Source: Escherichia phage vB_EcoS_UTEC10
DNA length: 44,773 nucleotides
Direction: 5' to 3' (one strand)
Sequence record: PP291582.1
Below the pieces are notes generated by a model, which saw only the letters and a program-made list of their open reading frames with translations, searched no databases and was not told where the DNA came from. Below, one piece after another: positions 2,943 to 5,616 of the stretch (positions within the stretch are counted from its first letter, which is position 1; each line of letters begins with the position of its first letter). The translations under genes were made by a program, and so were the position numbers.

Positions 2943-3383
2943 TTATCCTAATAGTTGTTTGGTAATAATCTTGCCGCCGGTGTTAACGTCGAACTTCGAT
3001 GCAACGGCTACGCCGCCATGCGCCGAATACCCACATTCCATAGCCGCTAATGCATATGGCGAGCCGGACCCAACGGCGGCAAAGCTGTCCGCAACCGTAA
3101 TAACCGAACTTAGTGCACAATCCCATGATTTATAGAACGCGACTTTGTACACCTTTTCTGTGTCTTTCACGAACACCAGGGCTTCGAAATCGAAGTCATA
3201 ATGTCTTGCCTGAAGGATATAAGGGTTGTCTATAAGCATAGTGCCAACTCCGGCATCACCCGCCACACCGATAATATAAGTATCATTCTCGTATATCTTT
3301 GTGTCAGTGTTGTAGCAGTTACTTCCGCACACAACGCGGGTATCACAGGCCATGGTCTTTCCATCGAATGCAATAGTAGTCAT
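2943..3383 (-). CDS. HslV/proteasome beta-subunit-like Ntn-hydrolase peptidase
   Basis: N-terminal MTTIAF (Thr nucleophile after Met), YIIGVAGDAGVGT and GSGSPYA motifs parallel HslV TTIVSV / VIAGFAGGTADA / GSGGPYA. Confidence 0.55.
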   Translation of the reverse strand: MTTIAFDGKTMACDTRVVCGSNCYNTDTKIYENDTYIIGVAGDAGVGTMLIDNPYILQARHYDFDFEALVFVKDTEKVYKVAFYKSWDCALSSVITVADSFAAVGSGSPYALAAMECGYSAHGGVAVASKFDVNTGGKIITKQLLG

Positions 3384-3673
3384 TTATGTCTCCAGATGTA
3401 TTGTCGTCTCTGCGGTTTCGTTGGAATATCATCGTACCCCCGCGATTTCCAGTAATTAAATAGCCGATTAGCGATAGCGGCGCGTTCCTGTGTTTTAAAC
3501 TCACCGAGATTCACGGCCTTCCCGTTCTGGAATCCGCAGGCGCGGACAGCTTTGCGTCTGGCCTGAATCTCTGGGTACAGCGCGTTACGGCGGCGCTTGT
3601 ATATCTGTATTTTAGCTCTCGGCGACAGCGGCGCGAGGCCGCTTCGTTTCAGGATGTCAGTTGCAAGAGACAT
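3380..3673 (-). CDS. hypothetical basic protein
   Basis: 97 aa track ORF, ATG start, ATGA overlap with the downstream gene. Confidence 0.5.
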   Translation of the reverse strand: MSLATDILKRSGLAPLSPRAKIQIYKRRRNALYPEIQARRKAVRACGFQNGKAVNLGEFKTQERAAIANRLFNYWKSRGYDDIPTKPQRRQYIWRHK

Positions 3674-3901
3674 TTATTGCCTCTCTATTTTAAAATGATA
3701 CATAATTCCGGATAACGCACCGATAGCCGTGTTGACATTGAAGTCTTTAATGTCGCAGAGGTTTCTAAGATACCGAACAGCATCAGCGAGTTCCGCGAAG
3801 TCTTCGTAACGTACCCAATCACCTTCGTCACTCTTAACCAGGTCGTTATACGGGTCGTATGGGTATTCACTAACATCTTTAAGCTCGTATCTCTGTACCA
3901 T
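3674..3901 (-). CDS. hypothetical protein, paralog A of a tandem pair
   Basis: Internal ATG at 3901 (MVQRYELKD...); shares VQRYE...LVKSDEGDW.YED with the upstream gene. Confidence 0.45.
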   Translation of the reverse strand: MVQRYELKDVSEYPYDPYNDLVKSDEGDWVRYEDFAELADAVRYLRNLCDIKDFNVNTAIGALSGIMYHFKIERQ

Positions 3902-4188
3902 CACTCCACCCCTTCCACATGTGTAACAGACCCGCAGTTCGCGCACTCGACGTAATCCGGGAACTGGTCTTTGTATTTCTGTAACTCGGCGTTTACTTCT
4001 GCCAGTCTTGACACAAGCCCCTCTATTTCCATATCCGTAGTGGTTATGTAGTCCTGGAAACTGTCGTCCAGTTCCTTGTAATCTTCGTAACTTATCCAGT
4101 CGCCTTCGTCACTCTTAACCAGCTCATGATACGGGTGGCACGAGTTAACACACACAGCTCTAAACTCATATCTCTGTACCACAATCAC
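3901..4188 (-). CDS. hypothetical protein, paralog B of a tandem pair
   Basis: 95 aa; N-terminal 40 aa paralogous to 3674..3901; C-terminus has a CxxC pair; GTG start overlapping the upstream stop. Confidence 0.45.
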   Translation of the reverse strand: MIVVQRYEFRAVCVNSCHPYHELVKSDEGDWISYEDYKELDDSFQDYITTTDMEIEGLVSRLAEVNAELQKYKDQFPDYVECANCGSVTHVEGVE

Positions 4189-4388
4189 TTCTCCTGTTTA
4201 CCAAGTCGCTTAGGTGAGCAGATAGCGCGTACCTCTGAATCGTTGGGCTTGTCGCCCTGAAACAGGAAGTGCGCGTTCTCTGCGGCGCGTGCCGCTGACT
4301 GGCACGCCTCCATCGAATAAAACGTTTCTGCTGCCGCTAGTTGCATCTGGCCTGCGGACAGTACCCAGATAAATAAGATGCTGGTCAT
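4185..4388 (-). CDS. small secreted protein (signal peptide predicted)
   Basis: Internal ATG at 4388 gives MTSILFIWVLSAGQMQLAAAETF..., a typical signal peptide with AxA site; ATGA overlap with the upstream gene. Confidence 0.45.
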   Translation of the reverse strand: MTSILFIWVLSAGQMQLAAAETFYSMEACQSAARAAENAHFLFQGDKPNDSEVRAICSPKRLGKQEK

Positions 4389-4882
4389 TTCTTTAACCCG
4401 CATTTAAGGCACATACAAGGAAACCCGACTCCGTAAAATTGCCATTCGTGCTCGCATTCCTGAGTATAGTTTTTCGGTTTATATTCCTCGTCATCCCACT
4501 CACGTTTACCACATTTAGAACAAAGCTCGCTACCAGGAACGTTGTTCGGATTGCCTTCACTGAGAAACAACCCAGGCATAATAATCCAAGAGTGCTCACA
4601 TTCCTGAGTATCTTCCTTACGGCAACCTGATTGCTCGGGTCCGTGTTCACCTACTACGTAGCTCACCCCTTTCGGCAGCGGGCCGCCGCGTTTTGTGACG
4701 CGGTTGAAATCCTCGTTCATCAGCTTTATTGTTTCCTGTAGCTCATCCACCAGCGCCGACGCGTCACGTAACTGATTCTTAAGTGACTGCACCTCATGCG
4801 CCAGGTCTTCGCACTGGTTGCTGTTTACCTGCTGCCGTAGTTGGTCAATCAGGTACTCGAATACTTCGTTTTTACTGTTCAT
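4385..4882 (-). CDS. coiled-coil / zinc-ribbon protein
   Basis: 165 aa; N-terminal heptad-like region, C-terminal Cys-rich region with repeated QECEH.W and CxxC motifs. Confidence 0.5.
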   Translation of the reverse strand: MNSKNEVFEYLIDQLRQQVNSNQCEDLAHEVQSLKNQLRDASALVDELQETIKLMNEDFNRVTKRGGPLPKGVSYVVGEHGPEQSGCRKEDTQECEHSWIIMPGLFLSEGNPNNVPGSELCSKCGKREWDDEEYKPKNYTQECEHEWQFYGVGFPCMCLKCGLKK

Positions 4883-5039
4883 TTTTCTGTTGCTCCCGGT
4901 CTCTTTTTAACATTTCATTGGCTTCCGCCAGTGCCTCTTTCCAGGTATCGAACTGGCGCCCATTGCACACCCACGGAGCACCTTTATAATTTCCTCTACG
5001 TCTTAAGTACCCGTATGATACCGCTTCTTTAAACGTCAT
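4872..5039 (-). CDS. hypothetical small protein
   Basis: Track ORF 4872..5054 (GTG); ATG at 5039 with GGAGAGA RBS; first gene downstream of the promoter at 5071-5099. Confidence 0.4.
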   Translation of the reverse strand: MTFKEAVSYGYLRRRGNYKGAPWVCNGRQFDTWKEALAEANEMLKRDREQQKNEQ

Positions 5040-5070
5040 CTTCCATCTCTCCACTCGTCGGTGTAAATGA

Positions 5071-5099
5071 ATAGTAGCCTATTCTATCTTAGTGTGCAA
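5071..5099 (-). promoter_or_regulatory. promoter TTGCAC-N17-TACTAT with embedded AATAG-N4-CTATT inverted repeat
   Basis: Minus-strand reading of 5071-5099; inverted repeat at 5070-5083 lies in the spacer. Confidence 0.5.
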
Positions 5100-5106
5100 G
5101 TAAATT

Positions 5107-5280
5107 TTATTGGTGTGTTATAGAGTCGATGAACGCCAGTAACTCGCGCTCCGCTTCTGCTTCTCTTTCTTCAAGCAACCAGGTAGCGGATTCCTCTGTT
5201 GCCGTTGCTATATCGGTTTTCACATCAATCATCGTGTCTATTAACGCGATTAATCGTTCGGCCTGTTCTTTAGTAATCAT
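5107..5280 (-). CDS. hypothetical small acidic protein (57 aa)
   Basis: Manually translated (MITKEQAERLIALIDTMIDVKTD...); AGGAGA RBS 7 nt upstream; opposite-strand track ORF 5129..5341 is low-complexity. Confidence 0.4.
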   Translation of the reverse strand: MITKEQAERLIALIDTMIDVKTDIATATEESATWLLEEREAEAERELLAFIDSITHQ

Positions 5281-5415: not shown

Positions 5416-5616
5416 TTACACCAGTTTCGGCGGTTTAGGCAATTTCCTCCAGTGCGTTATATCCTCGTTGTCTATGACAGAGTTGAATTCATCCCAACTA
5501 TCCCACTCATCCGAATCATCATCGAACCATTTAATCTCAACCTCTCCCCCATCAGTCACAAGTACATGAGAGAAAGGAGCGGGCATCTGCTCACTGCACT
5601 TAATCCACTTACCCAT
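5416..5616 (-). CDS. DUF551-like phage protein
   Basis: MGKWIKCSEQMP...THWRKLPKPP pattern typical of small DUF551 phage proteins. Confidence 0.45.
   Translation of the reverse strand: MGKWIKCSEQMPAPFSHVLVTDGGEVEIKWFDDDSDEWDSWDEFNSVIDNEDITHWRKLPKPPKLV

What the first reader, a model, noticed from the sequence alone, without database searches (positions are those of the whole stretch)
3674..4188. Tandem paralogous gene pair
Two adjacent genes share an N-terminal block (VQRYE.. ... LVKSDEGDW.YED.) and nucleotide stretches such as CCTTCGTCACTCTTAACCAG (3826-3845 and 4104-4123). The second copy has acquired a C-terminal CxxC-containing extension, indicating duplication and divergence in the early region.
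Basis: seen in the sequence. Interest (0 to 1): 0.4.

Follow-up and report, generated by a model that had tools for sequence, protein, structure and literature searches.

The report
Two shuffled-module small phage genes
Two neighbouring small genes of an E. coli Kagunavirus-type phage are real relatives, but each was pieced together by recombination from a shared pool of interchangeable parts rather than copied on the spot; the family is common, dispensable and of unknown function.

Summary
On the minus strand, gene "up" (4182/4188..3901, 93/95 aa, CxxC tail) and gene "dn" (3901..3674, 75 aa) share an N-terminal block. BLASTP gives 23/43 identical residues, E=2e-15. The DNA shows a 112-nt direct repeat at 79% identity, with an exact 20-mer at 3822-3841 and 4103-4122.

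The window is a Kagunavirus-like siphophage. Relatives carry 0, 1 or 2 genes of this family in the same slot. Each gene has four parts:
- a conserved MVQRY head;
- a variable 15-30 aa cassette (at least 21 types);
- a conserved YEDYxxL junction;
- one of at least 11 unrelated helical C-terminal modules.

The CxxC tail is the commonest C-module, not a new extension. Each window gene has a much closer relative in other phages than its neighbour. The identical dn gene is paired with three different partners elsewhere. The pair was therefore assembled by module exchange within an old paralogous family.

Both proteins are acidic and under purifying selection. They match no family with a tested function. 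The N-module recurs in Eae-annotated accessory proteins of other enterobacterial phages. The likely role, a dispensable host-interaction protein, is inferred and not shown.

The parts
3901..4182 (-). Gene 'up': 93 aa from GTG 4182 (95 aa if GTG 4188 is used). Parts: head, cassette, coiled-coil spacer, invariant CxxC tail. Stop TGA at 3903-3901.
   Evidence: ORF. 416 homologues, almost all starting MVQRY. The fEg-Eco06 orthologue is annotated from the equivalent GTG. The repeat register 4181/3900 supports this start. AF2 mean pLDDT 78: beta N-domain, helix 34-75, C-terminal hairpin.
4093..4167 (-). Variable cassette of up (EFRAVCVNSCHPYHELVKSDEGDWI)
   Evidence: Median pairwise identity among 98 long CxxC-tail homologues is 26% in this segment, against 90% in the rest. 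DNA identity to L071, L073 and L002 collapses exactly here.
3904..3990 (-). Invariant tail AELQKYKDQFPDYVECANCGSVTHVEGVE, with the CxxC codons at 3945-3934 and a conserved His
   Evidence: Columns C82 and C85 are invariant; H90 and most tail columns are at least 90% conserved in 69 sequences. phrog_29624 matches residues 61-95, E=4.8e-22.
3674..3901 (-). Gene 'dn': 75 aa. Parts: head, cassette, YEDF junction, rare two-helix C-module. ATG 3901-3899 overlaps the up stop by one base.
   Evidence: ORF. 16 homologues, of which only 5 clusters share the C-module. The exact protein is found on 7 metagenome contigs. No phage genome record holds its C-module. AF2 pLDDT is 66.
3812..3886 (-). Variable cassette of dn (ELKDVSEYPYDPYNDLVKSDEGDWV)
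   Evidence: The same cassette is found fused to at least 5 different C-modules, including the CxxC tail (P0004, P0005, P0009, P0011).
3789..3900 (.). Direct repeat copy 1 (head, cassette and junction of dn)
   Evidence: 112 nt, reference copy
4070..4181 (.). Direct repeat copy 2 (head, cassette and junction of up), 79% identical to copy 1
   Evidence: exact 20-mer at 4103-4122 and 3822-3841
4185..4403 (-). Conserved upstream flank: 67/72-aa protein with a signal-like N-terminus (left boundary of the variable slot)
   Evidence: phrog_3766, E=1e-35; at least 92% nt identity to relatives up to the boundary
3380..3673 (-). Conserved downstream flank: 97-aa basic protein (right boundary of the slot), used as the anchor to fetch 63 related loci
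   Evidence: phrog_9632, E=1.5e-54

Best explanation
The two genes are neighbouring members of one family of small (about 50-110 aa), strongly acidic accessory proteins of Guernseyvirinae phages. The family is built from exchangeable modules.

Shown:
- Each protein starts with a conserved MVQRY strand. A sequence- and length-variable cassette follows. It ends in a conserved G-x-[WYF]-V-x-Y-E-D-[YF]-x-x-L junction that begins a helix.
- The junction is followed by one of many unrelated helical C-terminal modules.
- In the up gene the C-part is a variable-length coiled-coil spacer plus an invariant 29-aa tail carrying CxxC...H.
- The slot between two conserved flanking genes holds 0, 1 or 2 family genes in related phages.
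- Cassettes and C-modules occur in many combinations and in either slot, with sharp DNA identity breakpoints at the gene boundaries and at the junction.
- The window pair is therefore a recombinant assembly from a population-wide pool. It is unusual only in that both slots happen to hold the same cassette type.

Inferred:
- The proteins oligomerise through the helix.
- In the up gene the CxxC/His tails of neighbouring chains may clasp a metal ion.
- The variable loop on the small beta domain, and/or the alternative C-modules, may bind host or phage partners.
- The family would then be a dispensable host-interaction function (takeover or counter-defence) that diversifies by module swapping.
- The target is unknown.
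For: Paralogy.

Phage identity and operon context.

Family size and architecture:
- 416 hits to up, with an invariant tail and a variable cassette.
- 16 hits to dn, in which the same cassette joins five or more C-modules.
- The N-module profile finds 599 proteins, and 438 clusters at 50% identity. The module almost always starts at residue 1.

Shuffling:
- 21 cassette clusters by 11 C-module clusters. Seven cassette clusters occur with two or more C-modules; six C-modules occur with two or more cassettes.
- More C-modules appear.

Copy number: among 42 Kagunavirus-like loci, 15 have two genes, 17 one and 10 none.

Breakpoints: block-wise identity profiles against L071, L073, L001 and L002.

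Re-pairing:
- The identical dn gene has three different partners.
- The C-module of dn occurs alone in L068.

The window is the exception: slot1/slot2 cassette identity is 52% here, against 12-33% in 16 other two-gene arrangements.

Real coding genes under constraint: pN/pS is 0.21 in the cassette and 0.05 in the C-module within one cassette type, n=6.

Acidity: up has pI 4.3 and charge -14; dn has pI 4.5 and charge -6; the family median pI is 4.25.

Structure: beta N-domain, a 42-residue helix with pLDDT above 90, and a C-terminal hairpin. The heptad pattern I55/L58/L62/V65/L69/Y72 is read directly from the sequence.

The N-module also heads longer proteins. Their C-terminal parts resemble HK97 gp37 and genes annotated Eae in phage records.
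Against: - No function has been tested for any member. Pfam, NCBIfam, PADLOC, PDB sequence search and fold searches give nothing significant.
- The crude pN/pS is below 1, so positive selection on the cassette is not demonstrated. Greater cassette variability could partly reflect weaker constraint.
- The homologue sets were collected with the window proteins as queries. This inflates the apparent conservation of the CxxC tail relative to the cassette.
- Oligomerisation and metal binding are unsupported by any computation here beyond a monomer model. The tail has only two Cys and one His per chain, and its pLDDT is 53-66.
- Expression timing is unknown.
Confidence: 0.6

Rival explanations
1. 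One reading: a recent tandem duplication in this phage lineage, followed by divergence, with the CxxC-bearing copy gaining a C-terminal extension.
For: The genes are adjacent, co-oriented and significantly similar at the N-terminus. The similarity includes a 20-nt identical run. This genome is the only arrangement seen in which both slots carry the same cassette type.
Against: Each copy has near-identical counterparts in other phages that lack the other copy. The two copies are only 79% identical to each other. The CxxC tail is the ancestral majority module. The dn gene has its own unrelated C-module rather than simply lacking one. The identical dn gene pairs with other partners.
Confidence: 0.08
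2. The up protein is a Lar-like zinc-ribbon restriction-alleviation protein, and the pair is an anti-restriction module.
For: Pfam Lar_restr_allev gives a weak hit on the CxxC tail (E=0.084, 13.6 bits). Longer proteins carrying the same N-module hit phrog_3592, 'Lar-like restriction alleviation protein', at E=4e-6 to 4e-4. The proteins are very acidic. The neighbouring 165-aa gene carries complete zinc-ribbon units, and some relatives fuse such a unit after the tail.
Against: The Pfam score is far below the 28.6-bit cut-off. The tail has one CxxC, not the two Cys pairs of a zinc ribbon. Neither window protein hits phrog_3592 at E<=1. BASEL Kagunaviruses are reported as highly sensitive to restriction-modification systems (PMC11990801). 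The PHROG label is an annotation, not a tested function.
Confidence: 0.1
3. The genes serve the adjacent lysis/protease cassette, for example as adaptors or regulators of the HslV-like peptidase or the holins.
For: They lie in the same operon, immediately upstream of the 97-aa gene, the HslV-like peptidase, two holins and the endolysin.
Against: Family genes and the HslV-like gene are present or absent independently. fEg-Eco06, BUCT823 and L073 have a pair but no peptidase gene. XY2 has the peptidase. Ten loci have lysis genes but no family gene.
Confidence: 0.07
4. The cassette diversity is neutral drift in an unconstrained loop of a protein whose only functional part is the C-terminal module. 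The paralogy then has no functional meaning.
For: pN/pS is higher in the cassette than in the C-module (0.21 versus 0.05) and below 1. Cassettes differ in length. Copy number 0-2 shows dispensability.
Against: A pN/pS of 0.21 still indicates purifying selection within a cassette type. Discrete cassette types are kept nearly unchanged across different genes, slots and phages. Framework residues (MVQRY, G, aromatic-V, YEDY) are conserved across 438 clusters.
Confidence: 0.15

Closest known systems
PHROG phrog_29624 (unknown function): short CxxC-tail proteins of Guernseyvirinae
   Same: The C-terminal 35 residues of up match profile positions 26-60 of 60 at E=4.8e-22. Same slot and same tail in about 100 sequenced Kagunavirus/Jerseyvirus genomes.
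   Different: The window protein is the long form, with an inserted coiled-coil spacer and a different cassette, so the N-terminal half does not align to the profile. The PHROG has no assigned function. The dn gene matches it only at E=0.1.
Proteins annotated Eae / eae in enterobacterial siphophages (e.g. phage vB_EcoS_swi2), whose C-terminal domain is shared with HK97 gp37 and HK620 hkaG/hkaH (phrog_492/614/368)
   Same: The same N-terminal module (x-V-[QK]-R-Y ... G-x-Y-V-x-Y-E-D-Y-A-x-L-E-A), followed by a coiled coil, heads some proteins annotated Eae, e.g. phage swi2. The layout is similar: short N-domain, coiled coil, C-terminal domain. These are likewise mosaic, non-essential accessory genes.
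   Different: The window proteins lack the C-terminal 'TPATDAFLAEVRAQGVE...AAQLR' domain of that family. HK97-type members carry a different N-module. No function is established for Eae.
Lambda Ea22 (exo-xis region)
   Same: Comparable three-part plan: short N-terminal domain, coiled coil, C-terminal domain. It oligomerises (tetramer), is transcribed early, and is diverse in sequence among lambdoid phages (PMC10834534, PMC7093339).
   Different: No sequence similarity was shown here. The HK140 'ead/Ea22-like' protein is a neighbouring, different gene. Ea22's pro-lysogenic role has no obvious meaning in a Kagunavirus-type phage.
Rac prophage Lar / Pfam PF14354 Lar_restr_allev
   Same: A small phage accessory protein with a CxxC motif; weak sub-threshold hit on the tail.
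   Different: The score is below the gathering threshold and only one Cys pair is present. See the membership test.

Membership tests
   (E=2e-15; 112-nt repeat at 79%)
   up is 100% identical to fEg-Eco06; the dn cassette is 88-100% identical to BUCT823, L071 and L073; up versus dn is 79%
Modular MVQRY...YEDY small-protein family of Guernseyvirinae (defined here) | MVQRY-type head, cassette, G-x-[WYF]-V-x-Y-E-D-[YF]-x-x-L junction at the N-terminus, located between the signal-peptide gene and the 97-aa gene | tested here: met
   The N-module HMM hits both genes at E=3e-18 and 2e-17 and nothing else in the window. The position matches 32 related loci.
phrog_29624 | Significant profile match | tested here: met
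   up: E=4.8e-22 over the tail. dn: E=0.1, not met.
Pfam PF14354 Lar_restr_allev | Score at or above the gathering threshold (28.6 bits) | tested here: not met
   13.6 bits, E=0.084
Pfam PF14354 Lar_restr_allev | Two Cys pairs forming a zinc ribbon (from my knowledge of the family) | tested here: not met
   The tail has only C-A-N-C plus one conserved His. The cassette Cys residues (CVNSC) are not conserved in the family.
Eae-annotated / HK97 gp37-like proteins (phrog_492/614/368) | C-terminal domain with the TPATDAFLAEVRAQGVE...AAQLR motifs | tested here: not met
   Absent from both window proteins. These PHROGs were not hit. Only the N-module is shared.
Diversity-generating retroelement target | Nearby reverse transcriptase and template repeat; variation limited to substitutions at adenine-templated positions | tested here: not met
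   Cassettes differ in length and are unalignable between types. No second cassette-like repeat occurs apart from the paralogue. The annotated relative Snoke has no RT gene. The window's own ORFs were not scanned for RT.
Known anti-phage defence proteins (PADLOC) | Profile match | tested here: not met
   No family at E<=1

The most novel reading that the evidence does not exclude
The family is a population-level, cassette-diversified binder. A variable loop sits on a tiny conserved beta scaffold that is oligomerised by a coiled coil and, in the up gene, clasped by an intermolecular Cys/His metal site. Discrete cassette alleles would match different variants of a host target, for example a defence protein or its sensor. 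Phages would usually carry two different specificities in tandem. This would be a recombination-driven counterpart of the variable-loop strategy, without any dedicated diversification enzyme.
Probability: 0.15. Interest if true: 0.65.

Novelty: new member of a known kind. Interest (0 to 1): 0.32.

Why it matters
Taken at face value the finding is ordinary: phage accessory regions are full of mosaic small genes. The comparison does expose three useful things.
- A clean natural example of exchange at domain boundaries inside genes of under 100 codons.
- An N-terminal module that no Pfam or NCBIfam model matched, present in more than 400 protein clusters and shared with Eae-annotated accessory proteins of other enterobacterial phages.
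- A two-slot locus whose occupancy (0, 1 or 2 genes) and alleles differ between otherwise about 90-95% identical phages.

Kagunaviruses are being adopted as small model and therapy phages. This locus is therefore a cheap candidate to test when closely related isolates differ in host range or in sensitivity to prophage-encoded immunity.

Tried and rejected
- Family libraries gave nothing usable. Pfam gave only sub-threshold hits (Lar_restr_allev, DUF2525). NCBIfam gave none and PADLOC none. PHROGs gave only unknown-function families.
- Structure-based searches were uninformative. PDB profile searches gave all E>0.1, coiled-coil noise. Foldseek against BFVD returned only family members and uncharacterised proteins. 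Foldseek against PDB returned nothing below E=7.9. The dn model is too poor (pLDDT 66) for a fold search.
- Rfam found no RNA family in 3000-5200, so there is no sign that the conserved tail/head DNA is an RNA element.
- The promoter/terminator scan was inconclusive.
- A DGR-type mechanism was considered and rejected (length-variable, unalignable cassettes; no RT in the annotated relative).
- Recent gene conversion between the two copies was considered. The single 20-nt identical run is compatible with ordinary 79% homology, so it is not invoked.
- A three-gene array in phage XY2 ('3 places') was examined. The middle copy is truncated and lies exactly on the record origin, so it may be an assembly artefact. 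It is left unresolved.
- I tried to take expression timing from Kagunavirus K1B4 RNA-seq (PMC12645636). Gene numbers cannot be mapped to this family from the text.
- Literature searches for Kagunavirus mosaicism and for phage CM001 gave nothing on these genes.
It was rebuilt.

Full report
**1. What is in the sequence**

The region 3674-4188 holds two adjacent ORFs on the minus strand.

- The upstream one ("up") runs from GTG 4188, or more probably GTG 4182, to TGA 3903-3901.
- The downstream one ("dn") runs from ATG 3901-3899 to TAA 3676-3674.
- The dn start shares one base with the up stop codon (TGATG), a layout typical of translational coupling.

The evidence for 4182 as the true up start is as follows.

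- It yields MVQRY..., the start of almost all of the hundreds of homologues.
- fEg-Eco06 is annotated from the equivalent codon.
- GGAG lies 8 nt upstream of it.
- The internal DNA repeat is in register with it (4181 versus 3900).

The paralogy is well supported.

- BLASTP gives 23/43 identities, E=2e-15, confined to the N-terminal 43 residues.
- The DNA is 79% identical over 112 nt, 3789-3900 versus 4070-4181.
It never appears in shuffles.
- Beyond residue 43 the proteins are unrelated.

**2. Where the window comes from and what surrounds the pair**

Megablast places the window among Kagunavirus phages of E. coli (Guernseyvirinae siphoviruses), with Salmonella jerseyviruses further away.

In the annotated relative Snoke the orthologous genes (gp67, gp68) sit in a run of about 14 small genes of unknown function. 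This run is transcribed away from a regulatory region with HTH genes. It continues without a break into an HslV-like peptidase, two holins and the endolysin.

In the window the immediate neighbours are:

- a 165-aa coiled-coil and zinc-ribbon protein (4882..4385);
- a 67/72-aa protein with a signal-like N-terminus (4403..4185, phrog_3766);
- the pair itself;
- a 97-aa basic protein (3673..3380, phrog_9632);
- the HslV-like peptidase (3383..2943).

All of these are of unknown function. The label "early region" is not verified. A promoter/terminator scan is uninformative. The one Kagunavirus RNA-seq paper found cannot be mapped to these genes from its text (PMC12645636).

**3. The family and its modular build**

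The up protein has 416 database homologues. Aligned, they show an almost invariant MVQRY start and a near-invariant C-terminal two thirds (C82 and C85 invariant; H90 at least 90% conserved). Between these lies a segment of 15-30 residues that differs in sequence and length. Among 98 long-form proteins the median pairwise identity is 26% in this cassette, against 90% in the remainder. The set was gathered with a query dominated by the C-part, which inflates the contrast.

The dn protein has only 16 homologues.

- Its cassette (ELKDVSEYPYDPYNDLVKSDEGDWV) is found fused to at least five unrelated C-terminal modules, including the CxxC tail.
- Its own C-module is found behind two other cassette types.
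- No phage genome in the 50,697-record collection carries the dn C-module.
- The exact protein is on seven metagenome contigs.

Clustering 178 family proteins gives 21 cassette clusters and 11 C-module clusters. Seven cassette clusters were seen with two or more C-modules. Six C-modules were seen with two or more cassettes. Further C-modules turned up later.

The up gene has a third variable element, the coiled-coil spacer between the junction and the invariant tail AELQKYKDQFPDYVECANCGSVTHVEGVE. It is absent in the 59-61-aa short forms. Other spacers replace it in L006, L013, L033 and P0049.

**4. Copy number and how the window pair arose**

I fetched 63 related loci using the conserved 97-aa gene as anchor. 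I then counted family genes with an N-module HMM. Among 42 Kagunavirus-like loci, 15 have two tandem genes, 17 have one and 10 have none, K1H among them. More distant Jerseyvirus-like loci have none or one.

Block-wise DNA comparison shows sharp mosaic boundaries.

| Compared with | Where identity stays high | Where it collapses |
|---|---|---|
| L071 | At least 71% in every other block, mostly 88-100% | Only in the up cassette (29-62%) |
| fEg-Eco06 (L001) | 88-100% through the up gene (100% through its first two thirds); 100% again at the 97-aa gene | At 3899, through the whole dn gene |
| BUCT823 (L002) | Up tail and dn head plus cassette (88-100%) | Up cassette and spacer; dn C-module |

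The identical dn gene (97-100% nt) follows three different slot-1 genes in L071, L072 and L073/L074. A gene with the dn C-module occurs alone in L068.

So each window gene has much closer kin in other phages than its neighbour. The pair is a recombinant assembly drawn from a shared pool. An old duplication must underlie the two-slot layout and the family. It did not happen in this lineage, and the CxxC tail was not a later addition.

In 16 other two-gene arrangements the two cassettes are 12-33% identical, against 52% here.

Recombinant fusions confirm that the head/tail boundary and the YEDY junction act as crossover points. Examples are L031, L037 and L010. In L036, L041, P0044, P0120 and P0249 a zinc-ribbon unit is added after the tail.

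Both junctions are conserved as DNA in most genomes. They also tolerate synonymous change, so the conservation is at least partly at the protein level.

**5. Are they real, constrained genes?**

Yes. Within one cassette type (six slot-2 genes) pN/pS is 0.21 in the cassette and 0.05 in the C-module. Both parts are under purifying selection. The cassette is about four times less constrained. This small test gives no evidence of positive selection.

No RNA family matches the region.

**6. What the proteins look like**

The AlphaFold model of up (69-sequence alignment, mean pLDDT 78) has three parts:

- a small four-strand beta unit (residues 2-32);
- one long helix (34-75, pLDDT above 90);
- a low-confidence C-terminal hairpin carrying the CxxC.

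The helix shows a 3-4 hydrophobic repeat (I55, L58, L62, V65, L69, Y72), read directly from the sequence, as expected for a coiled coil.

The dn model is weaker (pLDDT 66): a hairpin followed by two helices.

All family members are acidic. The median pI is 4.25. The up protein has charge -14 and dn -6.

The conserved tail offers two Cys and one His per chain. A complete metal site would need a second chain or another ligand. This is inference only.

**7. Comparison with what is known**

No family with a tested function matches.

- Pfam gave only sub-threshold noise, including Lar_restr_allev at 13.6 bits against a 28.6-bit cut-off.
- NCBIfam gave none and PADLOC none.
- PDB sequence and fold searches gave nothing significant.
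- BFVD returned only uncharacterised relatives.
- The CxxC tail belongs to phrog_29624, of unknown function.

A profile of the N-module finds 599 proteins in one database and 438 clusters at 50% identity in another. The module nearly always starts at residue 1.

Most hits are small proteins from contigs of 40-45 kb. Some are 165-280 aa. In those the module is followed by a coiled coil and a C-terminal domain with TPATDAFLAEVRAQGVE...AAQLR motifs. That domain is phrog_492/614/368. It matches HK97 gp37, HK620 hkaG/hkaH and genes annotated "Eae protein" in several phages.

The swi2 Eae protein begins MSEVKRYDISAFGSMSMDECGDGAYVNYEDYAELEAK, which is the same module. HK140 gp36 has the same C-part behind a different N-module. 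One relative is fused to an HNH domain.

The N-parts of several long relatives also hit phrog_3592, labelled "Lar-like restriction alleviation protein", at E=4e-6 to 4e-4. The window proteins themselves do not hit it.

The architecture (short N-domain, coiled coil, C-domain; oligomeric; diverse) parallels lambda Ea22 (PMC10834534, PMC7093339). I found no sequence link to it.

**8. Most likely mechanism, and its status**

Shown: two members of a modular, dispensable, acidic small-protein family, assembled and re-assorted by recombination at gene and domain boundaries.

Inferred:

- The proteins oligomerise via the helix.
- They use the variable loop and/or the alternative C-modules to bind host or phage partners.
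- The locus is therefore a host-interaction (takeover or counter-defence) function that diversifies by module exchange.

I put about 0.75 on [quoted passage not shown]. I put about 0.3 on counter-defence specifically, and about 0.1 on restriction alleviation.

Independence from the HslV-like gene argues against a role tied to that peptidase.

**9. Verdict**

The pair is an ordinary, though tidy, example of phage mosaicism. It sits in an uncharacterised family whose N-module matched no Pfam or NCBIfam model here.

Novelty: new member of a known kind. Interest is modest (0.32). It would rise if the cassette alleles prove to match host defence variants.

Noticed in passing
window 4385-4882 (minus strand): The 165-aa gene has a coiled-coil N-part followed by repeated zinc-ribbon units (SGCRKEDxQECxHxW ... 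CxKCG). The number and type of units differ widely among relatives. Recombinants fuse it to the CxxC tail of the family gene (L010) or place a unit after that tail (L036, L041, P0044, P0120, P0249).
   Followed up: partly
window 2943-3383 (minus strand): The HslV-like peptidase gene (phrog_1040) is present or absent among close relatives. It is absent in fEg-Eco06, BUCT823, L068 and L073, and present in the window, XY2, L071 and L072. Its presence is independent of the family genes.
   Followed up: partly
window 4185-4403 (minus strand): A highly conserved 67/72-aa protein with a hydrophobic, signal-like N-terminus (phrog_3766, unknown function) forms the fixed left border of the variable slot. 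In L018 and L010 it is partly or wholly deleted by recombination.
   Followed up: no
window 3380-3673 (minus strand): A conserved 97-aa very basic protein (phrog_9632, unknown function) forms the fixed right border. More distant versions (about 37% identity) exist in Jerseyvirus-like contigs.
   Followed up: no
L077/L003 (phage vB_EcoS_XY2, MN927226, across the record origin): Two CxxC-tail family genes lie in tandem, with a truncated, frame-shifted third copy between them, exactly at the start/end of the circular record. This may be a circularisation artefact at the repeated tail-plus-head junction, or a real deletion derivative.
   Followed up: partly
window 3674-3946 (minus strand): The mechanical ORF call extends dn upstream by 15 codons (VRELRVCYTCGRGGV). 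This is merely the CxxC tail of the up gene read in another frame. The same 'signature' marks every gene that follows a CxxC tail in relatives and could mislead automatic start calling.
   Followed up: yes
L072 (ENA ERZ28579237, BRIT20-1 scaffold_5990): A metagenome scaffold carries the same up/dn pair as the window (dn 100% nt identical; up partly masked by N), so this phage type has been sampled independently.
   Followed up: partly
window 5416-5616 and 5107-5280 (minus strand): Other small operon genes have Pfam families of unknown function (DUF551; DUF7438).
   Followed up: no
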